This document shows, piece after piece, positions 15,641 through 45,116 of a DNA stretch of 64,000 bases. The notes beneath the pieces were generated by a model. It was not told the DNA's origin, ran no database searches, and saw nothing but the letters and a program-made list of their open reading frames with translations. Origin of the DNA: Betaproteobacteria bacterium (GTDB lineage: Bacteria > Pseudomonadota > Gammaproteobacteria > Burkholderiales > SG8-41); assembly GCA_028291945.1 (NCBI GenBank), contig JAQGNH010000392.1, positions 29,013 through 93,012 on the forward strand, read 5' to 3'. Position 1 is the stretch's first letter; each line of letters starts with the position of its first letter. Position numbers and translations under genes: made by a program.

Positions 15641-17907
15641 AACGCTCCACCGAACGTAAACTGAAAGATCTGCTTGCTATCGCCCTCCAGCGACCGGATT
15701 GGCGCTGCAACACTTATTTTAAGCGGACCCATGGGTGAAACCCAGAGTACGCCGAGACCGACCGCAGCGCGCATCTCGCTGAAGGCGAAGCTTTCCGAAG
15801 CCATCCCGGTATCGACGAATGCGCTCATGCGCACGCTCTTTTCACCCTGCAACCCAGGGAACGGAAACAGGAACTCCGCGTTACCCAGGACCTTGTGGCT
15901 GCCCCCGCGGGGATTACCCTGCACGTCCTTGGGCCCGGCCGTGAACACCTTGAAGCCGCGCAGGGAGTTTACTCCACCAACGTAGAAGTTTTTGAAGAAT
16001 GGCAGCGCAGTCGTATCGCTATAGCCCGCGCCATAGCCGAGTTCGCCATTAAGCATGAGCGTGTAATCGCGGCTGATCGGGAAATATCGCTGATACTGAT
16101 ACTGGGCTTTATAGTATTTGAGGCTGGCGCCCGGCACCCCGACTTCTGCGCTTGCTCGCTGCATGACGCCCTTCGTCGGATAGATCAGGCTGTCGCGGTT
16201 GTCGCGCGTCCAGCCGACCGTGGCCAGTATCGCGTCGCTGGTGCTCCCGAACGTTTTGACATAATCGAGATAAATGAGAGGACTGTCGGCAAACGTCGAT
16301 ATGCTGGTTCTCTCATAGCCCAGTCCGTAATTGATTGTGTCGATATCCGTGATGGGCACGCCGAACCGTACCGCACCGCCTGTGGTCTGCGTGGTGTAGT
16401 CGCCAAGACCGGCGTTGGCGGCATTGATTTTGCGCTGGTAAATGTCAAAGCCACGGCTCACGCCGTCGACCGTGTAAAACGGATCGGTATAGGACAGTGC
16501 GTAGTTCGTGTTGAGCTTGCTCGTGTTGAGCCCGATCGACACGTGCTTGCCGGATCCGAAAATGTTCTGTTGCGTTACCGAACCCGACAATATGACGCCT
16601 TCGCCGCTTCCGAACCCTGCACCGAGCAGCACGGAGCCCGTAGGTTTCTCGGTTACCGAGACGTTCACATCGACCTGGTCGGTTGTCCCCTGCACCGCCG
16701 GCGTTTCGATATTGACCTCGTTGAAATAGCCCAGGCGGTCTATCCGGCTGCGTGAATTCGCTATCTTGTCGGACGAGAACCAGCCGCCCTCCATCTGGCG
16801 GAATTCCCGCCGTATGACTTCATCGCGGGTGCGGTTGTTACCCAGCACATTGATGCGCCGGACATACACGCGGCGGCCTGGGTCGATGAAAAAAGTAAAC
16901 GACGCCTGCCTCTTCTCCTTGTCAAGCTCCGGTGCTGCGTTCACGTTGGCGAAGGCGTAGCCCTCGCTACCGAGACGGTCGCTGATTTTCTTGGTTGATT
17001 CTGCGACACGTGCGCGAGAAAAAACGTCGCCGCGCTTTAGCGTGATGAGTTTGCGGATCTCGGCCTCGGGCAGCAGCAGTTCGCCACCAACTTTGACGTC
17101 CGCTACCGTGTACTTGGGACCTTCAGTGATCGAGATCGATATGTAGATGTCTTTCTTGTCCGGCGTGATCGACACCTGCGTGGATTCAACATTGAATTCC
17201 AGATAGCCGCGGTCCAGATAGTAGGACCGCAGCGTCTCCAGATCCGCAGCGAGTTTCTGGCGGGAATATTGATCCGCTTTGCTGTACCACGTGAGGATGC
17301 CGGGCGTGCGAAGACTGATCTGCCGCTTCAGCTCTTTTTCGCTGAAAGCCTGATTTCCGATGATGCTGACCTGCCGGATCTTTGCAGCATCGCCTTCTTC
17401 GACGGCGAAATTGAGCGCGACGCGGTTGCGTTCGAGTGGCGTCACGGTGGTGCTGACGTTCGCGCCGTAACGGCCCCGCGTCAGGTATTGCCGTTTCAAT
17501 TCCTGTTCGGCGCGGTCGAGGAGTCCTTTATCGAAGATCCTGCCCTCGGCAAGGCCGATCTGATTCATTGCCTTCAAAACGGTGTCCTTATCGAACTCGC
17601 GCAGCCCGGTAAATTCAATCTGGGCGATTGAAGGCCGCTCCTGTACGACTACGACGAGCACGCCCTCTTCAGCTTCGATCGAGACGTCTCTGAAAAACCC
17701 CGTGGCAAACAGCGCTCTGATGGTCTGGGAGGCTTTTTCGTCTGTCATCGTATCGCCAACCTTGACAGGAAGGTAGCTGAAGACAGTGCCGGCCTCGGTT
17801 CGCTGTATCCCTTCTACGCGGATGTCTTTGATGACGAAGGGTTCGATTGCTCGCGCCGGGAGGGAACTCAACGCCAACGCCAAAACACCTACACGCAAAA
17901 AATGCAT
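15637..17907 (-). CDS. bamA: Outer membrane protein assembly factor BamA
   Basis: POTRA repeats (IKDIRVEGIQR), SLRGF loop motif, C-terminal FQFTFGGAF. Confidence 0.98.
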   Translation of the reverse strand: MHFLRVGVLALALSSLPARAIEPFVIKDIRVEGIQRTEAGTVFSYLPVKVGDTMTDEKASQTIRALFATGFFRDVSIEAEEGVLVVVVQERPSIAQIEFTGLREFDKDTVLKAMNQIGLAEGRIFDKGLLDRAEQELKRQYLTRGRYGANVSTTVTPLERNRVALNFAVEEGDAAKIRQVSIIGNQAFSEKELKRQISLRTPGILTWYSKADQYSRQKLAADLETLRSYYLDRGYLEFNVESTQVSITPDKKDIYISISITEGPKYTVADVKVGGELLLPEAEIRKLITLKRGDVFSRARVAESTKKISDRLGSEGYAFANVNAAPELDKEKRQASFTFFIDPGRRVYVRRINVLGNNRTRDEVIRREFRQMEGGWFSSDKIANSRSRIDRLGYFNEVNIETPAVQGTTDQVDVNVSVTEKPTGSVLLGAGFGSGEGVILSGSVTQQNIFGSGKHVSIGLNTSKLNTNYALSYTDPFYTVDGVSRGFDIYQRKINAANAGLGDYTTQTTGGAVRFGVPITDIDTINYGLGYERTSISTFADSPLIYLDYVKTFGSTSDAILATVGWTRDNRDSLIYPTKGVMQRASAEVGVPGASLKYYKAQYQYQRYFPISRDYTLMLNGELGYGAGYSDTTALPFFKNFYVGGVNSLRGFKVFTAGPKDVQGNPRGGSHKVLGNAEFLFPFPGLQGEKSVRMSAFVDTGMASESFAFSEMRAAVGLGVLWVSPMGPLKISVAAPIRSLEGDSKQIFQFTFGGAF

Positions 17908-17910
17908 CGA

Positions 17911-19278
17911 TCAGCCGCTGATGAGACGATTTATGTCGTTATAAAGTGCGAAAGCCATCAATACGAACAACAGCGCCATGCCCAAGTGTTGTCCGATTTC
18001 GATGGCTTTGTCCGATACCGGACTGCCTTTGAAAACTTCGAAGACATAATACATCAAATGCCCACCATCCAATAATGGTATTGGCAGCAGGTTCAGCACA
18101 CCCAAACTGATGCTGATAAGCGCGAGAAACAGCAGAAAAGAAACCCAGCCCATTTGCGCGGACTGTCCTGCGTAATCAGCAATAGTGATCGGGCCACTCA
18201 GATTTTTGAGCGACACCTCGCCGACGATCATCTTGCCCAGCATCTGCAGACTGAATGCCGAGGTATCCCACGTTTTATAAAGTGCCTTTGCAATGCTTTC
18301 GACAGGACCGTAACGCACTTCCGTCATGAGCTCGGCGAATGCGTCGCGATCCACTTTGGGTCCCGCACCGATTCTCCCGATGGCTTTTCCACTCTCCGTA
18401 AAAACCTCAGGCGTGACCGGCACGGTCGTCGCTGTCTTTTCCGCGCGTTTGACTTCGAACATCAGAGGTTCACCTGGATGCGCGCGAACAGCTGATACGA
18501 CCTCTTCCCAGGTTTTGACCGGACGATCATTGATCGCCACGATCTGATCGCCGGGTTGCAGTCCAGCGCGCTCCGCCACGCCGCCGGCAACAACATTGCC
18601 GATCACAGGCGCGATCGGCGGCTGGTAACGCGCAAGGCCGAGCACGCGCAGAAAGTCGCTGTCGAGGTCACCAGCGCTGACATGGCTCAAGTCGAGCTCG
18701 CGCTGCACGATCTCGCCGGAACGTGTACGTACCGTTACGGGAACGCGATCTTTCTTCACTGCCCGCTGCAACAGCACCCAGCGCGCGTCCTGCCACGTGT
18801 CTACCGTTTCGTTTCCGATTTTGGCAATGGTGTCGCCGTTAGCGAATCCCGCCACCGCTGCGGGCGTGTTCGCCGCGACCGGCCCCAGCACGGCTTTCAT
18901 GCCCGGAACGCCGTGCATGAACAGGATCCAGTACAGGAAGATCGCGAGCAGGAAGTTCGCTACGGGACCCGCGAGTACTATTCCGAAGCGCCGTGCGACG
19001 GACTGCCTGTTGAACGCCCGATGAGCTTCGCTCGAATCCACCGGACCTTCCCGCTCGTCGAGCATTTTCACGTAGCCGCCGAATGGAAACGCTGAAATGC
19101 TCCACTCGGTTTGATCCGGACCGCGCCTGCGCGACCACAGCGGGCGACCGAATCCGACGGAAAAGCGCAACACCTTTACATTACACAGCCGGGCCACACA
19201 GTAATGACCCAACTCGTGAATGATGATAAGCAGCCCGAGCGTGACGACGAATGCGACGATCGTAGTAAGGAAGTTCAT
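17911..19278 (-). CDS. rseP: RIP metalloprotease RseP
   Basis: HELGH zinc motif, PDZ domains, [11 protein letters not shown]; start ATG 19278 overlaps dxr stop. Confidence 0.97.
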
Positions 19279-38623: not shown

Positions 38624-39334
38624 TTGGAGATTCAGGTTACCAAACGCAGAAAAAGGACGCACCGGCCGAGCCTCAAATTCGAAAAAGAGGCTGCCTGCGT
38701 CGTTTGCGGGGTTGATGAAGTCGGCTGTGCACCGCTCGCCGGGCCGGTTGTCGCGGCGGCAGTAATCCTGCCGAGCACGGGATTACCGAGGAAACTCGCC
38801 GCACTGATCAACGACAGCAAGATCGTCCCCGCACCGAAACGCGAGGCGGCTGCATTCGCGCTTCCCCAATACTGCGTGATCAGTTTTGGGGAGGCCAGCG
38901 TCGAAGAGATCGACACGCTGAATATTTACCACGCGCGAATGCTGGCCATGCGGCGCGCGGTGGCAGGACTGAGTGTGCTTCCGCAGCTGGCGCTGATCGA
39001 CGGCAACGCAACGCCGAAAGACCTCGCATGCCCTGCGCGCACGATCGTCGATGGAGATGCGAAGTGCCTGTCGATCGCGGCCGCCTCGATCGTTGCCAAA
39101 GTTTTTCGCGATGCCTATATGCACAAGCTCGCAGATGAATTCCCCGGCTATGGGTGGGAAACAAACGTCGGGTATGGGACCCGCGACCATCGCAGCGCCC
39201 TCGTTCGCCTGGGACTCACGCCGCACCATCGCCGCAGCTTCGCGCCCGTTCGCATGCACCTCGGTCTACCGCTTTTTCCCGACGACTGTCCAATCCCCGC
39301 AATCGACGACCCAGAACAGGACCACTGGGACTGA
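38624..39334 (+). CDS. rnhB: Ribonuclease HII
   Basis: GVDEVG..LAGPVVAAAVIL, NDSK, IDGN, IAAASIVAKVFRD, GYGT, HRRSFAPV; start codon uncertain. Confidence 0.92.
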   Translation: MEIQVTKRRKRTHRPSLKFEKEAACVVCGVDEVGCAPLAGPVVAAAVILPSTGLPRKLAALINDSKIVPAPKREAAAFALPQYCVISFGEASVEEIDTLNIYHARMLAMRRAVAGLSVLPQLALIDGNATPKDLACPARTIVDGDAKCLSIAAASIVAKVFRDAYMHKLADEFPGYGWETNVGYGTRDHRSALVRLGLTPHHRRSFAPVRMHLGLPLFPDDCPIPAIDDPEQDHWD

Positions 39335-39377
39335 AGCACATCACACGACCGTGTGAGAGCGTGCCATACCGGAGGAT

Positions 39378-39714
39378 GGGAGGTTACGGACGAAAACCTT
39401 GGGTTTCCCTCTGTCCGTTCATAGGCCCGCCTCGCGGAGCGAGCTTCCGAGGGCAAACAAGCACTGGGCGCAATCAGCGCACCGCATTGGCTCAGTGCCT
39501 CAAAGCGAGCGCTGCGAGCCGAAGGAAGAGAGGTTACGGAGAGAAACCTAAGTGTCTCTGTTCGTTCAGGCGGGGCGCCTAGCGGAGCAAGGTTGCGCAG
39601 CGAAACTATCGCCGGGCGCAATCCAGCGCATCGCATTGGCTCAGTGCCCCGAAGCGAGCGACGAGCCCGACGATGGGAGGTTACGGAGGGAAACCTTGGT
39701 TTCCCTCTGTTCGT
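39378..39714. repeat. ~150 bp tandem repeat (2.3 units) with REP-like hairpins
   Basis: AGGTTACGGA at 39381, 39531, 39678; shared GGGCGCAATC(C)AGCGCA(C/T)CGCATTGGCTCAGTGCC; hairpin ACGGAGGGAAACC-TT-GGTTTCCCTCTGT. Confidence 0.85.
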
Positions 39715-39719
39715 AAATT

Positions 39720-39746
39720 CCATTATCGCGCTTCACGCGATAATGG
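39720..39746. terminator. Perfect 11-bp hairpin overlapping the CCA end of the displaced tRNA-His 3' fragment
   Basis: CCATTATCGCG-CTTCA-CGCGATAATGG. Confidence 0.5.
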
Positions 39747-39793
39747 GGTGGCTGATGGGACTCGAACCCACGACAACCGGAATCACAACCCGG
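39744..39793 (-). repeat. att site: duplicated 3' half of tRNA-His (distal end of the island)
   Basis: 47/50 identical to 45040-45089; 18-bp perfect core CGACAACCGGAATCACAA (39771-39788 = 45067-45084) extending into the anticodon loop. Confidence 0.93.
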
Positions 39794-39818
39794 ACGCCAC
39801 AGATTCTGAATTTTGTTA

Positions 39819-39831
39819 AATCAACAGGTTA
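39819..39831 (+). promoter_or_regulatory. IHF consensus site in att arm
   Basis: AATCAACAGGTTA matches WATCAANNNNTTR; a near-consensus counterpart lies at 45013-45025 on the - strand (GTTCAACGACTTA). Confidence 0.6.
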
Positions 39832-40196
39832 GGCAGCGCCGGCTCTTCCTGTGTCGATTTAATAGCCCCTGATGGCCTATCCTTCCAGCACACTTTTGAC
39901 ACAGCATTTCATACCGACGTCGCTTCCCATACTGTCCGCGGGGGAAGCGTTACTGCGACATGTAGGTGAGCCAGACCCGGACTAGCCTCATCGACGAGCT
40001 CAATTGAACGGATTTCGAACCGTTAATTGCCGCTCGAAAATCTGTCCGTGCTGCAGTCTTCGGAATAAAGCTCTTTGCATCCCGCCAGAAGCGCCGAAGC
40101 GACGATCATCGCGTCTTAAATACTAAGCCCGTAACGAGCGGCAATTGCGGAACATCGCGACAGTAGGCAAGCTGGGTAAGCCATGTCAGCACTGAG

Positions 40197-41036
40197 GTGC
40201 TACAGTTCCGCCATAAACCACTCACAGCTGAGTCTAGTGTGAATCACGGCCTCGAGTACAACCGCCAGCTCTTGTTACTTGGTGCCAAGCGGAACGCAGT
40301 TCTTGAACTGTCGGAAGTGCAGCGTTATGGAACGGATAGCTACGGCGATCCTGACTACGTAACGATTTACGGTTTGCGACCCGCCGACTGGTTCGCGAAG
40401 GGAGTCCGGCTCCTCGGGCGCACAGCGGTCGAATGCACCCGAGATGAGCTCGCCAACGCAGTCGGAAAAGAAATCGCGGCAATTGCTGCAAGTGGCGCAG
40501 AGGCGGCGCATGTCGTTTTGGACCCGTTTGCTGGGTCCGGCAACACGCTGTACTGGATCTTGCGCCACCTGCCTGGTGCGCGCGCTACCGGTTTCGAGCT
40601 CGATCCTAAAGTTTTTGAGCTCACCCGAGCCAATCTGTCGATACTCGGGCTTCCAGTTACGATCCTGAACGCCGACTACGCGAGCGAACTGTCCAATGTT
40701 GCACCTGCTACCGATGAGCTTCTGGTTACGTTCATAGCCCCACCTTGGGGCGAAGCGCTCAGCGCAAAGTCAGGACTCGATCTACGACGCACCACTCCGG
40801 CCGTAACCGAAATCGTTGACCTACTCACGAAACAGTATCGGCACAATCGGCTCGTATGCGCCGTTCAGGTTCACGAGCGACTTGATCATGCCGGTGTACG
40901 CGAAATTACGCAGCGCTTCGACTGGTCAGCGTTATCCATCTTTGATCTGAATCCGCCCGGAGAACGGCACGGACTTCTTCTTGGCACAATCGGGTGGGTG
41001 CCACGACTCGGAGCTGCAGCAGCGAATCATGCATAG
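40197..41036 (+). CDS. SAM-dependent class I methyltransferase (Tgs1/RsmD-like)
   Basis: Motif I VVLDPFAGSGN, GFELD, motif IV-like FIAPPWG; start codon uncertain. Confidence 0.8.
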   Translation: MLQFRHKPLTAESSVNHGLEYNRQLLLLGAKRNAVLELSEVQRYGTDSYGDPDYVTIYGLRPADWFAKGVRLLGRTAVECTRDELANAVGKEIAAIAASGAEAAHVVLDPFAGSGNTLYWILRHLPGARATGFELDPKVFELTRANLSILGLPVTILNADYASELSNVAPATDELLVTFIAPPWGEALSAKSGLDLRRTTPAVTEIVDLLTKQYRHNRLVCAVQVHERLDHAGVREITQRFDWSALSIFDLNPPGERHGLLLGTIGWVPRLGAAAANHA

Positions 41037-41204
41037 CTACGCTGCTGTGGCGTTCAATCGCCAGGACGTCGCGGCACAAGTATGTGTGGTGCCGCTTATG
41101 GCCCGATAGCTGCCTGCTGCTTGGCGCTGCCCCAGTTGGTGTAACAGGGGACCTACGGATACAGGCGGAGCGCGTAATCGCATGATTACGCATCCCTGCT
41201 CTGC

Positions 41205-41281
41205 CATAAAACGCATTAGGACGAAAACAACGAGCGCCGCCTCAGCTCATGCCTACTTGTTTTCGTCATAACGCGTCTATG
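41205..41281. other. Inverted pair of dif-like (tyrosine recombinase core-type) sites
   Basis: CATAA-AACGCA-TTAGGACGAAAACAA ... 26 bp ... TTGTTTTCGTCATAA-CGCGT-CTATG; perfect 11-bp IR at 41220-41230/41257-41267. Confidence 0.5.
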
Positions 41282-41707
41282 AGGCGGTCTTTCATCAACG
41301 AATTTCTATCCGCCAAGCGGTTTTGATCAGACAGCGTTTAATCATACTGCTGCCCTTGCAAGCGGGCGCATGCTGATTACCTCCACGGTTAAGTTGTTGC
41401 TCAATTCTCCGTGCTAATCCCCGAGCTAATCGCGATATCCCTTTTTTTTGCCACCATTTCTCATTGCGCGACGATACGAGACCAATCAAGATCACCAGCA
41501 ACATCGCCTGAACAGTGCATCGATTGACGCGCAAAAAGTGACGGCGTAAAAATGAGTCTCACGTTGTACAGGTAGTTGGCATCCTGGCCGTTCGTTGCGA
41601 GCGGCGAAGCCAGCGCAGTGGTTATCGCAGCCGATCATCGCGATCGAGTAACACACGCCAGCTCGCCGCGTGGGAAGTAGCCAAGCCCAAGAGAAAGATT
41701 CAAAAGA

Positions 41708-42546
41708 GCGCGAGGTTAACCCGTATTGCCTCGTGCGCGCGCCTGCAAGGGCGTTCGGGAGAGAGTGACGCGCGTGGCTTGACAGTGCGCGTCGCAAGCC
41801 CTCGAGCTTGCAGAGAGACGGCCGTCCCCAAGACGGTCGCATAGGATTGCACAGTGGCCGTCGCTTCCTGGGCGGCCTGTCAAAGAGATCCCGAACGGGA
41901 TCACCGAGCGTTCACGGCAAGTGAGCGCCCGGTCACGAGATCGAGCGAGTTTGTTGTCTCGCCTCGATCGTGGACGCGTGACGTCCAGTAGCAACGTGTC
42001 GGTCCGGTGCTCGATGCCAGACCGACACGTTTTCCGACATTGATTCCGAGAGTCGCCGCCTGTTTCGGTGCGTGACGTGCGAAGGCCGCACGCCGCCCGT
42101 GTGCCGCGAGCCTTGAGCTCGCGTGCACGCGACGTGGGGTAACGGCCGTAGCCGCTCACGCACACAGCTATCGCCACCCGCACGCGCGTCGTTACTAGCG
42201 GGCCACCGCTAGTGACGTACGCGCTAACACGACCGGCGCGGGGTGCAAGTCCCGCGTGTCTGCGAACTCGGAACCACGTGACGAACCTCCTGAAGGCGAG
42301 TCATGCCAGCTTTGCGATGGGTGCAATGCCCTCGCCGAATGATTCGCGTAACGGACCGATGAGACGCGCCTTAACGGCGCTCCTTGAGTCCTGGGTTAAT
42401 GACTCTCGCGACGGGCGATTCTGCAGGATCGCCCTCGCGACGCCTACAAGGCGGCGTGCGGCGCCGGCGAGCAGCAAAAACTTCCGCACGAAACGGGAGT
42501 GGTGTCCCGTGCTCAATCTTAGTCCTCGTGGCCGCTACGGCGTCAC
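41708..42546 (+). ncRNA. Putative large structured ncRNA or folded ssDNA: array of ~20 consecutive stem-loops
   Basis: Back-to-back hairpins, e.g. 41794-41811, 41887-41902, 41971-41987, 41993-42031 (12 bp perfect), 42190-42217, 42406-42440, 42493-42510; G-T wobbles on the + strand; no credible ORF. Confidence 0.6.
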
Positions 42547-42775
42547 AGGCGAGCAGAAACACTTACCTGACACGAACACACCAAGGCAGCACAGGCAGCA
42601 CGGCAGAAACGCTTTACGGGACGAATGGAACGCTTTTCAAGAAAGGACCTGAATCATGCGAGACAAACGATCACCGCTCCCGCCGTCGGTTCCCACTCTG
42701 GCGGCGGCGCTTCAAATCGCGGGCATGGATTGCCTCCCGCGTGTTCGCTCTCACTCACATGACAAGGACGCGCCC

Positions 42776-43645
42776 ATGCGTGATCTGAACTACGCCTTGA
42801 AGCAGCTCTCCATGCGAAACCGTGATGGCAGCTTCGCGACCCAGGCCGACCGCCAGCACATCCTCAATCTCGTTGCCAATCAGCTCCACGAGATGGGGTT
42901 CCGGCACATGGACGCCCACAGCCTGAAGCCCAAGCACGTAGAGAAGCTCGTTGAGCGCTGGCTTGGCGAGGACCTGTCGGCGGGGACGCTCAAGAACCGG
43001 ATGACGGCGCTGCGCTGGTGGGCCGAGAAGATCGGCAAGGAGAACGTTGTCGCGCGCAGCAACGACGCCTACGGCATTCCGGATCGAGTCTTCGTGACCA
43101 ATGTTTCGAAGGCCACCGAGCTTGACGCCGAGAAGGTCGGGCAAATTCGGGATGCCTACATCCAAATGTCACTCCGACTGCAAGCCGCATTTGGCCTGCG
43201 CCGCGAAGCCTCGATCAAGATCATTCCGGCGCTGGCGGATCAAGGCACCTGGCTCGTACTCCAAGAGTCCTGGAACAAGGGCGGGCGAGAGATCAGACTT
43301 CCCATCCTCACGCCGGAGCAGCGCGATCTCCTCGACCAGGCCAAAGCACTTGCTCAAGGCAAGAGCCTCGTTGCGCCCGGCCATACCACCTACCGCGACT
43401 ATCTCGCGCACTTTCGTTACGAATGCAAGCGCGTCGGCATTCACGCCTTCCACGGCCATCGACATTTCTACGCGCAGGCGCGCTACAAAGCATTGACCGG
43501 TCACGAATGCCCGGCGCGGGGTGGCCCTACTTCCAAACAACTCACGCCCGAGCAGAAGGCCGCCGATCGCGAGGCGCGGCAGACGATCAGTCACGAGATG
43601 GGCCATAACCGCGAACAGATCACTGCCGTGTATTTGGGACGCTGA
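42776..43645 (+). CDS. Tyrosine recombinase, Integrase_l_N + Integrase_1-like family
   Basis: MRDLNYALKQL..RDGSFATQADR, LKNRMTALRWWAEK, catalytic FGLRREA, HGHRH, MGHNR, AVYLG; RBS AAGGA. An in-frame ATG at 42656 also has an RBS. Confidence 0.88.
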   Translation: MRDLNYALKQLSMRNRDGSFATQADRQHILNLVANQLHEMGFRHMDAHSLKPKHVEKLVERWLGEDLSAGTLKNRMTALRWWAEKIGKENVVARSNDAYGIPDRVFVTNVSKATELDAEKVGQIRDAYIQMSLRLQAAFGLRREASIKIIPALADQGTWLVLQESWNKGGREIRLPILTPEQRDLLDQAKALAQGKSLVAPGHTTYRDYLAHFRYECKRVGIHAFHGHRHFYAQARYKALTGHECPARGGPTSKQLTPEQKAADREARQTISHEMGHNREQITAVYLGR

Positions 43646-43681
43646 CGCACAACGCACGTGCGAGAGCTGGCAGATAGCGAG

Positions 43682-44002
43682 ATGAGTCACGCAGTCCCAC
43701 TCACTCAAGCGGCCGCCGTCTTGGGGGTCGCCTATAAGACGGTGTGGAAAGCCGCCGCTACGGGGAAGATCAAGGCGTTCCGTGCGTGGCCAGGTGGGCC
43801 ATGGCGCATATGGCAGCACGAGCTCGACCGCTTATTGCATAATGAGCACGGGCCGGCGCTGCCTCCAGATATGGAGGTTGCATGCCCCATAAGCGTGAAG
43901 GGAGCCGATATTGGTGGGTGCGTATCGGCGGAGTACGACAATCTGCTGAAACAGAGGACTTCGAAGCAGCGACGCGGATCGAGCGTGACGGCAACGAGAT
44001 AA
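43682..44002 (+). CDS. Excisionase / HTH_17 DNA-binding protein
   Basis: LTQAAAVLGVAYKTVWKAAATGKIKAFR...WRI winged-HTH pattern; 3' end overlaps int by 121 bp. Confidence 0.8.
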   Translation: MSHAVPLTQAAAVLGVAYKTVWKAAATGKIKAFRAWPGGPWRIWQHELDRLLHNEHGPALPPDMEVACPISVKGADIGGCVSAEYDNLLKQRTSKQRRGSSVTATR

Positions 44003-45015
44003 TTCAGCTGTCACGTCAGAAGGCCAAGATAGAGGCGATGCGCCTTGAATTGGTCGGCGCCAAACCGGCGCGGTCGTGGAAAGAGCTTTGTGTTCGCTGG
44101 TCGAAGGAGAAAGCAGCAAAGGCGTCTTGGCTGGATGATCTGAGGATGATCGAGTGGTGGGGTCAGCATCTGGATCACATTACTGACATCCGCGTGATCA
44201 CTCGCGAGCGGGTTGACGATGTCATGCGGACGCATCGCAGCGGCATAACCGTAGCATCAGCAGTACCGGCCAATTCAACGGCTAACCGCTACGTGGCGTT
44301 GCTCTCCGCCATGCTGAATGCCGCGTGCAAGCGGTGGGACTGGATCGAGCGTGCCCCGCTCTTGATGCGCTACCCAGAACCGGAAGGCCGCGAGTCGTGG
44401 CTGACGGTTACCGAGTGGCGCTTACTCGAGCAGCAGTGCCCCGAGCACCTGCGGCGGCCAGCGACATTTGCACTGGCTACCGGGTTACGCGATGCCAAGG
44501 TGTTTGGTTTGGAATGGCCACAGATAAACATGTCGGAGCGGTATTTGATGCACAAGGGAACCGGGAACAAGCTGGGCAACGTCATTCCGTTGAACGATAC
44601 GGCCATGGCGGTGCTGCGCGAGATCCAGGCATCCCCGGTGCGTCATATGACGCGGGTGTTTACGTGGATGAAGCCAAAGAAGGTGGATGATGTTCTAACG
44701 TACACGGTCGAGCCGTTGAATGATTACGGTAAGGCGTGGTGGAAAGCGCTCGCGCGTGCTGGTCTGGGGCATTACGATGCAGATGGACGCTGGCGGGGGG
44801 AATTTACGTGGCATGGACTACGCCACACCTTCGCAACGTGGCTACGCAGCGGTGGTGCTCCCGATTGGGCAATCGACGCTTTGGGAGGCTGGTCAAGGGC
44901 TGCAACACGCGAGCGTTATTCGCATGTGTACGTCGAGTCTCTGCGGCCGTTCGCGCAGATGATCGACACAGTTCTGACACAGCAACCGGATATTAGAGCA
45001 GCACAACACCGGTAA
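43882..45015 (+). CDS. Phage-type site-specific integrase (tyrosine recombinase)
   Basis: N-terminal arm-binding-like KREGSRYWWVRI, STANRY, ATGLR, WHGLRHTFATW, LGGWS, ERYSH; ends 25 bp from tRNA-His. Confidence 0.93.
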   Translation: MPHKREGSRYWWVRIGGVRQSAETEDFEAATRIERDGNEIIQLSRQKAKIEAMRLELVGAKPARSWKELCVRWSKEKAAKASWLDDLRMIEWWGQHLDHITDIRVITRERVDDVMRTHRSGITVASAVPANSTANRYVALLSAMLNAACKRWDWIERAPLLMRYPEPEGRESWLTVTEWRLLEQQCPEHLRRPATFALATGLRDAKVFGLEWPQINMSERYLMHKGTGNKLGNVIPLNDTAMAVLREIQASPVRHMTRVFTWMKPKKVDDVLTYTVEPLNDYGKAWWKALARAGLGHYDADGRWRGEFTWHGLRHTFATWLRSGGAPDWAIDALGGWSRAATRERYSHVYVESLRPFAQMIDTVLTQQPDIRAAQHR

Positions 45016-45039
45016 GTCGTTGAACTGCAGGTGAGAAGA

Positions 45040-45116
45040 TGGGGTGGCTGACGGGACTCGAACCCGCGACAACCGGAATCACAATCCGGGACTCTACCAG
45101 CTGAGCTACAGCCACC
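45040..45116 (-). tRNA. tRNA-His(GUG)
   Basis: GGTGGCTGTAGCTCAGCTGGTAGAG..CCGGA-TTGTGAT-TCCGG..GGTTCGAGTCCC..CAGCCACCCCA; G-1:C73 pair, encoded CCA. Confidence 0.98.

What the first reader, a model, noticed from the sequence alone, without database searches (positions are those of the whole stretch)
41708..43645. ~840-bp chain of ~20 distinct stem-loops upstream of an Integrase_1-like tyrosine recombinase: candidate structured RNA/ssDNA-recombinase system
Seen: from 41708 to 42546 the DNA has no credible ORF and is almost fully tiled by short hairpins of different sequence. Examples: GCGCGAGG/CCTCGTGC (41708-36); CGCCT-GCAA-GGGCG; GACGCGCG/TGCGCGTC; GCAAGC/GCTTGC (41794-811); CGGCCGTC/GACGGTCG; GGCCGTC/GGCGGCC; GATCCC/GGGATC (41887-902); GCGTTCAC/GTGAGCGC; GATCGAG-CGAG/CTCG-C-CTCGATC; TGGACG/CGTCCA (41971-87); AACGTGTCGGTC/GACCGACACGTT (41993-42031); CGTGCG/CGCACG; CGCGAGC/GCTCGCG; CGTTACTAGCGG/CCGCTAGTGACG (42190-217); GCGCGGG-GTGCAAGT-CCCGCGT; GCGCC/GGCGC; GAGTC/GACTC; TCGCGA-C-GGGCGATTC/GGATCGCCC-TCGCGA (42406-40); ACGGGA/TCCCGT (42493-510). 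In about ten stems the imperfect pairs are G-T on the + strand (A-C on the - strand), and GCAA recurs in several loops. Long-range complements also exist: CGTTCGGGA 41752 / TCCCGAACG 41889 and TTGACAG 41779 / CTGTCAA 41877. About 230 bp downstream, on the same strand, is a recombinase with intact R, HxxR, H, Y residues. Known: this recombinase family is annotated only generically, and I know of no defined substrate for it. Some tyrosine recombinases act on folded ssDNA (IntI on attC, XerCD on CTX phage ssDNA) or work as relaxases. Inference: the strand-biased wobbles indicate selection on a single-stranded fold. The region may be a large ncRNA partner of the recombinase, or a folded ssDNA substrate/origin it processes. 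The element already has int/xis for integration, so the second recombinase probably has another job.
Basis: partly seen in the sequence, partly recalled or inferred. Interest (0 to 1): 0.88.

Follow-up and report, generated by a model that had tools for sequence, protein, structure and literature searches.

The report
Hairpin-rich mobilization region of small island
A 0.9-kb protein-free stretch packed with conserved hairpins sits in front of a recombinase-like DNA-transfer enzyme in a tiny mobile island; it most likely holds the island's transfer origin and a structured helper RNA like the one known from Salmonella Genomic Island 1.

Summary
Window 41700-42600 has no conserved ORF and folds far better than shuffles (z -6.2 on +, -5.1 on -; the neighbouring gene gives +0.45). 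It is conserved upstream of homologous recombinases.

The "second recombinase" (42776-43645) is not an orphan. It shares the Pfam family Integrase_1 with MpsA of Salmonella Genomic Island 1 and is 37% identical to it over the catalytic half. MpsA is a tyrosine-recombinase-like MOB_M relaxase. The element is a 5.3-kb tRNA-His integrative mobilizable element.

Two parts are widely conserved:
- A long inverted repeat (42183-42226) occurs in 70 of 86 loci. It is the best oriT-core candidate.
- A 214-nt, 10-helix domain (42362-42575) ends in AACACTTACC. It lies upstream of 80 of 80 homologues, and 41 of 47 pairs show compensatory changes.

The layout matches SGI1: oriT, then the sgm-sRNA core, then mpsA.

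RNA versus folded DNA stays open. Wobble strand bias is weak in the 3' domain, GNRA loops are not enriched, no RNA data exist, and intact copies occur in three genomes without the relaxase.

Verdict: a new, structure-rich variant of a known mobilization module, not a new kind of system.

The parts
39743..39793 (.). Left attachment repeat: 51-nt copy of the 3' half of tRNA-His; left boundary of the island
   Evidence: Direct repeat family D1, 94% identical to 45039-45089. RNase HII lies just outside at 38624-39334.
40197..41036 (+). Cargo ORF with weak methyltransferase-like matches
   Evidence: Pfam Cons_hypoth95 8.9e-05 and Methyltransf_25 0.0024, both below curated cut-off. NCBIfam PrmC 2.2e-4, far below cut-off. 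No homologue in the 80 related loci.
41524..41553 (+). Promoter-like site upstream of the hairpin region (TTGACG-18-AAAAAT)
   Evidence: The only sigma-70-like site in 41000-43000; shuffles give a mean of 0.3. Not conserved: 0 sites in L016 and L023, 1 on + in L036. Weak evidence only.
41700..42035 (+). 5' hairpin domain, conserved only in the closest relatives
   Evidence: nhmmer finds it in 13 loci plus the window only. 55 consensus pairs, 21 with compensatory change, 93.1% of cells paired against 87.7% shuffled and 31-41% slid. G-U 100 against A-C 21.
42036..42361 (+). Middle hairpins. The window lacks a ~180-nt hairpin block that most close relatives carry after 42031.
   Evidence: Alignment A1 columns 563-745 are gaps in the window row. 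Consensus helices are in A3.
42183..42226 (.). Long inverted repeat (GCGTCGTYACT...RAGTGACGWCGC type); best candidate for the oriT core
   Evidence: Found in 70 of 86 loci, a median of 148 nt upstream of the 3' domain. Outer arms are conserved in sequence and inner arms differ between loci yet stay complementary in the examples printed. blastn also finds it in distant loci. It sits about 440-560 nt upstream of the ATG, against 304-428 nt for oriT_SGI1. Function is inferred.
42362..42575 (+). Widely conserved 214-nt domain of 10 helices; positional equivalent of the SGI1 sgm-sRNA core
   Evidence: Model R1 finds it full-length, on the gene's strand, upstream of 80 of 80 homologous loci; L076 is cut by its contig end. 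There were 88 matches in 88 sources at E<=1e-10. 95.2% of cells are paired against 80.4% shuffled and 33-44% slid. 41 of 47 pairs show changes on both sides.
42493..42510 (+). Nearly invariant hairpin ACGGGA-GTGGTG-TCCCGT inside the 3' domain
   Evidence: Helix 7 in A9: 2 of 6 pairs never vary and the other 4 show only a few compensatory changes. The loop is invariant in the alignments shown.
42558..42567 (+). Invariant single-stranded motif AACACTTACC that closes the domain, preceded by a hairpin
   Evidence: AACACTKACC is present in 76 of the 96 loci held, once per locus with two exceptions, at a fixed place. A related motif lies 15-59 nt upstream of the gene in 5 of 7 distant loci: SGI1-type, pSIO1, and Pleionea, Agrobacterium and Gallibacterium plasmids.
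42776..43645 (+). MOB_M-type (MpsA/MobK-like) tyrosine-recombinase-fold relaxase; alternative start at 42656
   Evidence: Pfam Phage_int_SAM_2 3.3e-20 and Integrase_1 6.6e-06, above cut-off. 37% identical to SGI1-type MpsA over 174 aa, E 2e-23. MpsA itself hits Integrase_1 at 4e-11. Plasmid homologues sit next to a T4 coupling protein.
43658..44002 (+). AlpA/excisionase-type HTH protein
   Evidence: Pfam HTH_17 1.9e-07. NCBIfam excisionase domain 3.2e-05, below cut-off.
43882..45015 (+). Island integrase (tyrosine recombinase)
   Evidence: Pfam Phage_integrase 5.4e-16. It ends 25 nt from the 3' end of tRNA-His.
45039..45115 (-). tRNA-His target gene; its 3' half (45039-45089) is the right attachment repeat
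   Evidence: ARAGORN tRNA-His 45040-45115. Repeat family D1.

Best explanation
The region is the non-coding half of the mobilization module of a 5.3-kb integrative mobilizable element (39743-45089) inserted in tRNA-His.

The Integrase_1 protein is not a second integrase. It is a MOB_M-type relaxase of the MpsA/MobK kind. It would nick the excised island at an origin of transfer, so that the secretion system of a co-resident conjugative element can export one strand.

The hairpin region upstream of its gene holds that origin. The long inverted repeat at 42183-42226 is the most likely core. I also think the region is transcribed rightward, on the strand of the relaxase gene. The 214-nt, 10-helix domain at 42362-42575 would then be the counterpart of the sgm-sRNA core of Salmonella Genomic Island 1, an RNA needed in trans for transfer, probably as part of the relaxase complex.

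Shown here:
- island boundaries;
- family membership of the protein;
- conservation, covariation and fixed position of the two elements;
- the same order of parts as in SGI1.

Inferred:
- which element is oriT;
- that an RNA is made;
- what the RNA does.

My odds: about 0.8 that this is the oriT-bearing mobilization region of a MOB_M relaxase, and about 0.45 that a functional structured RNA is part of it. The confidence given is for the combined statement.
For: Island:
- 51-nt tRNA-His repeats at 39743 and 45039.
- Housekeeping genes on both sides.
- int and an AlpA-like gene next to the tRNA.

Protein:
- Integrase_1 plus Phage_int_SAM_2.
- 37% identity to MpsA, E 2e-23, with R, HxxR, H and Y aligned.
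- MpsA is itself an Integrase_1 member.
- The SGI1-type locus was recognised by the published P5 promoter, 1 match against 0.00 expected.
- Homologues of 49-54% identity lie beside a T4 coupling protein on a 4.9-kb and a 35-kb plasmid.
- MOB_M relaxases are reported as the commonest chromosomal relaxases, 96% of them near an integrase (bioRxiv 10.64898/2026.01.13.699239, passages).

Region:
- The 3' domain is upstream of 80 of 80 homologues on the gene's strand.
- 41 of 47 pairs are compensatory; 95.2% of cells are paired against 33-44% when slid.
- The inverted repeat is in 70 of 86 loci.
- Upstream regions fold better than shuffles in SGI1 (z -8.2) and two distant plasmids (-6.9, -4.4), and in 6 of 6 more distant loci (z -2.0 to -9.4; -5 or lower in 4). 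The gene controls were near 0 in 5 of 6 and -3.2 in one.

SGI1 precedent:
- oriT lies 304-428 nt upstream of mpsA (PMC6414798).
- A 650-700-nt primary RNA runs on the mpsA strand. Its essential core lies between oriT and mpsA and acts in trans (PMC9299015, sections 11-12).
- The shared motif CACTTACC lies 59 nt before mpsA, outside the minimal oriT.

Strand hints for +:
- Lower z on + with both parameter sets.
- 5' domain G-U 100 against A-C 21.
- Several pairs where G-U is the commonest state.
- Unpaired positions are rich in A and C.
Against: - No transcript is shown. No RNA run holds the stretch (a blank, not evidence).
- Promoter-like sites are not conserved: 0, 0 and 1 in three relatives.
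- Wobble asymmetry in the 3' domain is weak (112 against 78). G-U is only about 3% of cells there. Alifold favours - in two of five alignments.
- GNRA loops are not enriched.
- Neither model finds the SGI1 or pSIO1 region on +. Homology of the RNA therefore rests on position and one 8-nt motif.
- Intact copies of the 3' domain, with the inverted repeat nearby in the two folded sequences where I saw it, stand without a relaxase gene in 4 of 10 loci from relatives.
- Three of 5 genomes checked have the domain but no relaxase homologue anywhere. One of those genomes is only 85% complete, and a single protein query was used. This fits a cis-acting DNA site better than an RNA cofactor of the relaxase.
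- No helper conjugative system was looked for.
Confidence: 0.5

Rival explanations
1. DNA only. The whole region is an unusually large origin of transfer and relaxosome platform. The hairpins matter as intrastrand DNA structures, either cruciforms in supercoiled DNA or folds of the displaced or transferred strand. They are read by the relaxase and accessory proteins. The 3' domain with its hairpin followed by AACACTTACC is the recognition and nicking site. No functional RNA is made.
For: - Orphan copies sit in islands and genomes without the relaxase. These resemble the oriT-only hitcher islands of bioRxiv 10.64898/2026.01.13.699239.
- Watson-Crick pairs dominate, with few G-T and near-equal A-C in the 3' domain.
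- An inverted repeat, then a short spacer, then a conserved single-stranded motif is the usual build of nic regions. This point is recalled general knowledge.
- In pIGRK the minimal 186-bp oriT lies just upstream of the mobK promoter (PMC8152469).
- The fold z-score is also strong with DNA parameters.
Against: - In SGI1 the stretch between oriT and mpsA, which carries the shared motif, is not needed in cis. It works as an RNA in trans.
- More than 25 hairpins over 0.9 kb is far more than any minimal oriT described in the papers read (125-186 bp).
- The domain always lies on the strand of the downstream genes, orphans included (4 of 4).
Confidence: 0.3
2. Cis-acting leader. The domain is the structured 5' leader of the operon that follows it: relaxase, AlpA and integrase here, other recombination genes in the orphans. 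It controls their expression, for instance by binding the relaxase or a helper-encoded factor.
For: - Fixed distance and same strand as the downstream gene in 80 of 80 loci and in 4 of 4 orphans.
- The motif lies 15-90 nt before start codons.
- In SGI1 the mpsAB promoter maps to the ~100 bp before the ATG.
Against: - In SGI1 the RNA does not act through MpsAB expression (PMC9299015 discussion).
- No terminator or sequestered ribosome site is evident. The only terminator-like site in 41000-43000 is at 41274.
- Downstream genes in the orphans are unrelated to each other.
Confidence: 0.08
3. Post-transfer single-strand functions. The hairpins act in the incoming single strand in the recipient, as priming sites for complementary-strand synthesis or as single-strand promoters of the Frpo kind that switch on the relaxase, AlpA and integrase genes early.
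For: - Both strands fold better than shuffles.
- A 5-kb island must be copied and integrated quickly after entry. This is inference.
- If the transferred strand is the template of the downstream genes it would be the - strand, which the weak wobble bias in the 3' domain does not exclude.
Against: - Frpo-type elements form one long imperfect hairpin that rebuilds -35 and -10 boxes (recalled). Here there are many short stems and no promoter boxes on -.
- The 5' domain favours +.
- Which strand is transferred is unknown for this relaxase class.
Confidence: 0.05
4. Unrelated passenger. The region is a large non-coding RNA or a decayed gene that merely sits next to the relaxase gene.
For: No Rfam match. 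Orphan copies exist.
Against: - Strict linkage and orientation in 80 of 80 loci.
- The same layout in SGI1.
- No conserved reading frame.
Confidence: 0.03

Closest known systems
mobSGI1 module of Salmonella Genomic Island 1: oriT_SGI1, sgm-sRNA, MpsA/MpsB (Kiss 2019 PMC6414798; Nagy 2021 PMC9299015)
   Same: - The relaxase is of the same Pfam family and 37% identical in the catalytic half.
- It sits in an integrase-bearing island.
- A hairpin-rich stretch of 0.7-0.9 kb lies upstream on the same strand (z -8.2 against -6.2).
- The order of parts is variable 5' part, inverted-repeat cluster, about 250 nt of conserved structure, then the gene.
- The motif CACTTACC lies shortly before the gene.
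   Different: - Here the DNA-binding N-terminal domain is fused to the catalytic domain. In SGI1 a separate small MpsB is needed (PMC8152469).
- There is no detectable sequence or model similarity of the non-coding parts beyond the motif.
- No S022-like ORF is present.
- The host is a soil betaproteobacterium and the island is 5.3 kb with no T4SS genes.
- The structure here is backed by covariation. The text I read of the SGI1 papers reports conservation only; their Figures S7 and S8 were not visible.
MobK and oriT of Klebsiella plasmid pIGRK (Nowak 2021 PMC8152469)
   Same: - A tyrosine-recombinase-like relaxase with its oriT in the intergenic region just upstream of its gene.
- Inverted and direct repeats are needed.
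- It is mobilized by an unrelated T4SS.
   Different: - The paper states that MobK, TcpM and MpsA share little sequence. I did not compare MobK with the window protein, because no copy was fetched.
- The pIGRK region is 456 bp, with a 186-bp minimal oriT.
- No RNA is reported.
oriT regions of MOB_M relaxases (oriT_rM families) and oriT-only islands (bioRxiv 10.64898/2026.01.13.699239)
   Same: - The first large intergenic region upstream of a MOB_M relaxase is treated as the oriT region.
[quoted passage not shown]
   Different: - That survey covers a set of well-studied species.
- In the passages I read it says nothing on secondary structure (0 occurrences of 'hairpin' and of 'secondary structure').
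- Its supplementary profiles could not be opened, so I cannot say whether this family is among them.
   Same: A tyrosine-recombinase fold acts where DNA can form hairpins.
   Different: - Those are recombination sites of about 60-150 nt used for integration.
- Here the island has its own int, xis and att, and the protein groups with relaxases.
- Not tested further.
Large ornate bacterial RNAs found on mobile elements (GOLLD, ROOL, HEARO/omega RNA)
   Same: Size class and location on mobile elements.
   Different: No Rfam family matches, even at E<=10. The partner protein is different.

Membership tests
MOB_M (MpsA/MobK/TcpM) tyrosine-recombinase-like relaxases | Tyrosine-recombinase catalytic fold with conserved Arg, His-x-x-Arg, His and the Tyr nucleophile | tested here: met
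   Pfam Integrase_1 above cut-off. The alignment to MpsA keeps LRxE, HGxRH, GH and YLG.
MOB_M (MpsA/MobK/TcpM) tyrosine-recombinase-like relaxases | Sequence relatedness to a member with genetic proof of function | tested here: met
   BLASTP to the SGI1-type MpsA gives E 2e-23 and 37% over 174 aa. Both fall in Integrase_1. The published MOB_M profile itself could not be run, because it is a supplementary dataset.
MOB_M (MpsA/MobK/TcpM) tyrosine-recombinase-like relaxases | Genomic setting: next to an integrase in an island, or with a coupling protein on small plasmids | tested here: met
   int and AlpA follow the gene and att repeats bound the island. A T4 coupling protein follows the homologue on pSIO1 and the Pleionea plasmid.
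MOB_M (MpsA/MobK/TcpM) tyrosine-recombinase-like relaxases | Site- and strand-specific nicking at oriT and requirement for conjugative mobilization | not testable with these tools
   Needs mating assays and biochemistry.
sgm-sRNA of SGI1 | Encoded between oriT and the relaxase gene, on the strand of the gene | tested here: inconclusive
   The 214-nt domain lies between the conserved inverted repeat and the gene on its strand. That the repeat is oriT is inferred.
sgm-sRNA of SGI1 | Sequence or structure homology to the SGI1 core | tested here: not met
   R1 and R2 give no + strand match in the SGI1-type locus; the best is E 1.5, and a - strand match over oriT has E 0.043. Only the 8-nt motif is shared, and 15 of 200 shuffles give such a match somewhere in the locus.
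sgm-sRNA of SGI1 | A transcript exists and is processed from a longer primary RNA | not testable with these tools
   No RNA run holds the stretch.
sgm-sRNA of SGI1 | Required in trans for mobilization | not testable with these tools
   Genetic test needed. Orphan copies without a relaxase argue for caution.
Origin of transfer (oriT) | Cis-acting site next to the relaxase gene, with inverted repeats | tested here: inconclusive
   Position and repeats fit. Cis action was not tested.
Any Rfam 15 family | Score at or above the family's gathering threshold | tested here: not met
   Only two tRNAs in the window. Nothing meaningful in 41000-43000 at E<=10.
Integrative mobilizable element | Integrase, attachment repeats at a tRNA, a relaxase, and no mating-pore genes of its own | tested here: met
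   The 5.3 kb hold only five plausible genes, none with a T4SS domain among those scanned.

The most novel reading that the evidence does not exclude
MOB_M relaxases work as ribonucleoproteins. The 214-nt, 10-helix RNA, with its invariant GUGGUG loop and AACACUUACC tail, would be an obligate subunit that assembles the tyrosine-recombinase-like relaxase on oriT or couples it to a foreign secretion system. This RNA requirement would be ancestral to the family, from soil betaproteobacterial islands to SGI1. The orphan copies would then be RNA genes or decoys that exploit or interfere with incoming relatives.
Probability: 0.25. Interest if true: 0.8.

Novelty: new variant of a known kind. Interest (0 to 1): 0.55.

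Why it matters
Tyrosine-recombinase-like relaxases were recognised only recently, and a 2026 preprint reports them as the commonest relaxases in bacterial chromosomes. How they nick, which strand they transfer and how they dock to foreign secretion systems is unknown. The SGI1 group reports that its attempts to map the nic site failed. The one RNA reported to be needed for their action, sgm-sRNA, has no known mechanism and had been seen only in SGI1 relatives.

This locus belongs to a set of at least 88 loci in which the equivalent stretch has a well-defined fold supported by covariation. It has invariant loops and a tail motif that reaches SGI1 and plasmids of alpha- and gammaproteobacteria. 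That gives a concrete structural model with testable helices.

It also offers harmless cultured carriers, such as Janthinobacterium, Massilia and Thauera strains. And it provides a natural experiment, the relaxase-less copies, to decide whether the element acts as RNA or as folded DNA.

If it is only an oriT, it is still an unusually large and ornate one.

Tried and rejected
Database searches of the region itself:
- Rfam gave nothing beyond two tRNAs.
- The phage collection search with the region gave no match.
- The region is single copy in its own genome.

Coding reading rejected:
- No Pfam family matches the internal ORFs.
- There is no conserved frame.

Prophage or ICE reading rejected: the flanks are housekeeping genes and the island is 5.3 kb.

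GNRA-rich 'ornate RNA' impression: my own first reading of alignment A1. A count did not bear it out.

Strand call from wobbles and alifold energies is inconclusive. Raw MFE differences between strands in distant loci follow base composition and were not used.

An alternative hairpin overlapping helix 6 (a possible switch or pseudoknot) was looked at by eye. An automatic scan found no consistent register, so it was dropped. A pair-scan for helices in A6 was too noisy in this GC-rich sequence.

Homology of the non-coding part to distant loci:
- The SGI1 and pSIO1 regions were not found with R1 or R2.
- Of four motifs sought in seven distant loci, only the tail motif recurs.

Promoter scans gave no conserved site.

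Sequencing runs: no RNA holder is listed. 20 DNA metagenome rows were listed and none were laid.

Literature searches found no paper on a structured RNA or a covariation-supported fold upstream of these relaxases other than sgm-sRNA (searches). The language-model preprint 10.64898/2026.10.21.760802 has 0 occurrences of integrase, relaxase or oriT in its main text.

These may bear on novelty and were not seen:
- Figures S7 and S8 of PMC9299015;
- the oriT and MOB_M profiles of the 2026 preprint.

TcpM (Wisniewski 2016) was not read; it is known to me only through citations in the papers above.

Tools not used: read laying, structure prediction, fold search, complex prediction, the search for homologous proteins, the search of protein representatives, the protein-atlas search, the listing of cluster members.

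Full report
WHAT IS THERE

The window comes from a soil betaproteobacterial genome assembly (G000, 587 contigs). Between RNase HII (38624-39334) and tRNA-His/tRNA-Arg/PNPase lies a small foreign segment. Two 51-nt direct repeats bound it. One is the 3' half of tRNA-His (45039-45089) and the other is a 94% identical copy at 39743-39793. The island is therefore about 5.3 kb. Read on the + strand it holds:
- a weakly methyltransferase-like ORF;
- about 1.7 kb without a credible gene;
- the Integrase_1 protein (42776-43645);
- an AlpA/excisionase-like HTH protein;
- a Phage_integrase-family integrase that ends 25 nt from the tRNA.

CHECKING THE OBSERVATION

Fold z-scores against 20 dinucleotide shuffles per test:

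| Stretch | Parameters | Strand | z |
|---|---|---|---|
| 41700-42560 | RNA | + | -6.2 |
| 41700-42560 | RNA | - | -5.1 |
| 41700-42600 | DNA | + | -6.1 |
| 41700-42600 | DNA | - | -3.1 |
| recombinase gene (control) | RNA | + | +0.45 |

The region is not a decayed gene:
- The four ORFs inside it hit no Pfam family.
- ORFs in 13 related loci differ in place, strand and frame.
- Translated comparisons give short, frame-hopping matches on both strands, with lower identity than the DNA itself.

Rfam has nothing. The phage collection has nothing.

THE PROTEIN IS A RELAXASE OF A KNOWN, RECENTLY RECOGNISED KIND

- A tblastn search of plasmids found 221 records. Among them are very small plasmids on which the homologue lies directly before a type IV coupling protein: pSIO1 of 4.9 kb and a 35-kb Pleionea plasmid.
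- One weaker hit is a Salmonella record. Its locus carries the published P5 promoter of the SGI1 mobilization region, TTGACG-16-TAATAT (1 match against 0.00 expected). About 755 nt downstream sit a 321-aa and a 75-aa gene, the sizes and order of mpsA and mpsB.
- That MpsA falls in Pfam Integrase_1 (4e-11). It aligns to the catalytic half of the window protein at 37% identity (E 2e-23), with the Arg, HxxR, His and Tyr positions in register.
- The window protein also carries the N-terminal Phage_int_SAM_2 domain. In SGI1 a DNA-binding function is thought to be supplied by the separate MpsB (PMC8152469). MpsB itself shows no significant similarity to the window protein.

The literature, as far as I read it:
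- Kiss 2019 (PMC6414798; abstract and passages): MpsA is an atypical relaxase essential for SGI1 transfer. Its 125-bp, GC-rich, repeat-laden oriT lies at SGI1 positions 18016-18140, and the mpsA start is at 17712.
- Nowak 2021 (PMC8152469; passages): MobK of pIGRK nicks DNA. Its minimal oriT of 186 bp lies just upstream of the mobK promoter.
- A 2026 preprint (10.64898/2026.01.13.699239; passages): these 'MOB_M' relaxases are the commonest in chromosomes, 96% of them sit near an integrase, and the first large intergenic region upstream is treated as the oriT region.

The window's island fits this description as a minimal integrative mobilizable element.

THE NON-CODING REGION IN RELATIVES

With the protein as query, 268 relatives were confirmed in one-genome-per-species contigs, and the best 80 loci were kept.

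Thirteen loci with 70-76% identical proteins share the whole region. blastn gives about 70-80% identity over 42046-42591 and weaker identity over 41705-42030. More distant loci share about 42375-42583.

A covariance model was built from the 14 closest sequences of 42362-42575, using a hand-drawn structure of 48 pairs. It finds a full-length match on the strand of the gene, ending some 60-90 nt before it, in 80 of 80 loci; one is cut by its contig end. At E<=1e-10 there were 88 matches in 88 sources.

On the resulting alignment (86 distinct rows):
- 95.2% of cells form standard pairs, against 80.4% after shuffling partners and 33-44% when partners are slid by 1-3 columns.
- 41 of 47 pairs show changes on both sides.
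- All ten helices contain such pairs.

That alignment is fitted to the model. An independent MAFFT/RNAalifold run on 79 sequences already gave 26 of 32 pairs with compensatory changes.

Sequence-invariant features are the hairpin ACGGGA-GTGGTG-TCCCGT (42493-42510), the loop GGGTYAATG, and the tail AGAAACACTTACC (42555-42567).

The 5' domain (41700-42035) is confined to the 13 close loci. There it also covaries: 21 of 55 pairs, 93.1% paired against 87.7% shuffled.

A second widely conserved element is the long inverted repeat at 42183-42226. A version of it occurs in 70 of 86 loci, a median of 148 nt before the 3' domain. Its outer arms are conserved; in the 12 examples printed the inner arms differ between loci yet stay complementary, which I read by eye and did not count.

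Hairpin-rich upstream regions are a family trait:
- In six more distant loci, the 500 nt before the domain gave z -2.0 to -9.4.
- The gene controls gave z +0.7 to -1.2 in five of the six, and -3.2 in the sixth.
- The SGI1 region gives z -8.2.
- The Pleionea plasmid gives z -6.9 and pSIO1 gives z -4.4.

COMPARISON WITH SGI1

Nagy 2021 (PMC9299015; outline and sections 11 and 12 in full) shows the following:
- A 650-700-nt primary RNA starts at P5 and runs toward mpsA through ORF S022 and oriT.
- Only its 3' part, between oriT and mpsA, is essential.
- It acts in trans.
- It does not act by raising MpsAB.
- Its role is unknown. The authors suggest a part in the transfer complex.

From the published coordinates, oriT_SGI1 maps to 304-428 nt upstream of the mpsA ATG in the SGI1-type locus. 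The core lies between the two.

In the present family the conserved inverted repeat lies about 440 nt before the ATG, or 559 nt in the window, which has a 120-nt insert. The 10-helix domain fills the space between the repeat and the gene. The order and spacing of parts are thus the same.

Sequence similarity is not detectable with either model, with one exception:
- The tail motif CACTTACC occurs once in the SGI1-type locus, on the right strand, 59 nt before mpsA. 15 of 200 shuffles give a match somewhere in the 6.5 kb.
- Variants occur 15-47 nt before the gene in four of six other distant loci.
- By my mapping the SGI1 copy lies outside the minimal oriT, near the 3' limit of the essential RNA core. 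That mapping depends on an assumed start site and is an inference.

RNA OR FOLDED DNA?

Covariation shows selection for intrastrand pairing. It does not tell RNA from single-stranded or cruciform DNA.

For RNA on the + strand:
- the SGI1 precedent;
- the constant orientation;
- lower z on + with both parameter sets;
- the 5' domain, with G-U 100 cells against A-C 21 and alifold -53.7 against -30.1;
- pairs where G-U is the commonest state;
- A/C-rich unpaired positions.

Against, or neutral:
- In the 3' domain G-U against A-C is 112 against 78 overall, and 81 against 25 in the seven well-aligned helices. A few positions dominate the count.
- Shared + and - helices give 69 against 45.
- Alifold prefers - for A3 and A7, and + for A2, A5 and A9.
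- GNRA tetraloops are at background.
- Promoter-like sites are not conserved.
- No RNA data set holds the stretch.

The most telling counter-evidence comes from relatives:
- Of ten loci recovered by DNA similarity, four have an intact domain but no relaxase gene behind it.
- Of five genomes re-searched, three have one high-scoring domain and no relaxase homologue at E<=1e-10. These are G003 (85% complete), G014 and G024 (both 98%).
- G035 has two domains and one relaxase. G042 has seven domains and six relaxases.
- In these 'orphans' the domain again lies upstream of genes on the same strand. The genes are two small ORFs, an integrase and tRNA-Lys in one locus, a large serine recombinase in another, and an unknown 472-aa protein in a third.
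- A repeat of the same type is visible in two of the three folded upstream regions.

Such copies look like the oriT-only hitcher islands of the 2026 preprint. They favour a cis-acting role for at least part of what they conserve.

VERDICT

I am confident (about 0.8) that the region is the oriT-bearing, non-coding half of a MOB_M mobilization module.

I think it more likely than not that the long inverted repeat is the oriT core. I put the odds that the 10-helix domain works as an RNA like sgm-sRNA at a little under even. The main rival is that it is a DNA-level part of the origin.

Either way this is a structure-rich variant of a known kind of system, not a new kind. The literature I could search does not contain:
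- the covariation-supported fold;
- its breadth: 88 loci here, and 8 of 151 genomes sampled across the order, with up to seven copies in one genome;
- the motif shared with SGI1 and with plasmids of other classes;
- the relaxase-less copies.

Supplements were closed.

LIMITS

- All z-scores rest on 12-20 shuffles; pSIO1 had 100.
- Related sequences are not independent, so cell counts overstate support.
- The models' E-values are rough.
- Absence of a relaxase was tested with one protein query.
- No helper conjugative element was sought.

Noticed in passing
window 39365-39710: Three tandem copies of a ~148-nt unit (repeat families D2-D4, 64-92% identical) lie between RNase HII and the left attachment repeat. 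They may be a REP-like or other intergenic repeat array.
   Followed up: no
window 42031/42032 against L015-L027 (alignment A1 columns 563-745): The window lacks a block of about 180 nt that most of its 13 closest relatives carry in the middle of the region. The block holds several strong hairpins, so the window copy is a shortened version.
   Followed up: partly
L016 2555-2648, L022 2556-2648, L024 2557-2650, L026 2399-2493, L021 2413-2517: Five close relatives carry a tandem second copy of the ~95-nt module (four small hairpins) that starts the conserved 3' part (nhmmer positions 3-97; partial model hits). This points to modular, duplicable units.
   Followed up: partly
window 42656-42775; L018, L021, L025, L026: An in-frame ATG 120 nt upstream would add about 40 residues to the relaxase. 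Four of the 13 close relatives have a similar insert with a conserved stretch; the others go straight from the tail motif to the gene. The true start was not settled.
   Followed up: partly
G003:C2:917418-917624, G014:C6:128213-128427, G024:C281:1526-1736 (L104, L102, L005): Intact copies of the 214-nt domain occur in genomes where no homologue of the relaxase was found. They sit next to an integrase and tRNA-Lys, a large serine recombinase, or an MqsR/MqsA pair.
   Followed up: partly
G042 (seven places): One genome of another family in the same order holds seven copies of the domain and six relaxase genes. Two of the domain copies have identical scores, so there was recent spread within a genome.
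   Followed up: no
L101 1672-3367 (Legionella adelaidensis plasmid): Two Integrase_1-type genes lie in tandem, annotated as overlapping by 8 nt. No tail motif was found before the second one.
   Followed up: no
L098 889-2000 (Agrobacterium plasmid): A 1.1-kb gene-free, strongly pairing region precedes the homologue. Model R2 gives a weak full-length match (E 0.015) that ends in AAAACTTACC just before the gene. The same plasmid also has a MobA/MobL relaxase.
   Followed up: partly
window 42190-42201 and 42558-42567; orphan loci L103, L104: The left arm of the conserved inverted repeat (GTCACTAC in many loci) resembles the tail motif (ACACTTACC). The tail could be a third half-site for the same protein. 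This was seen by eye only.
   Followed up: no
window 40197-41036: The island's only cargo-like ORF has sub-threshold methyltransferase matches and no counterpart in the 80 related loci, so the cargo is variable.
   Followed up: partly
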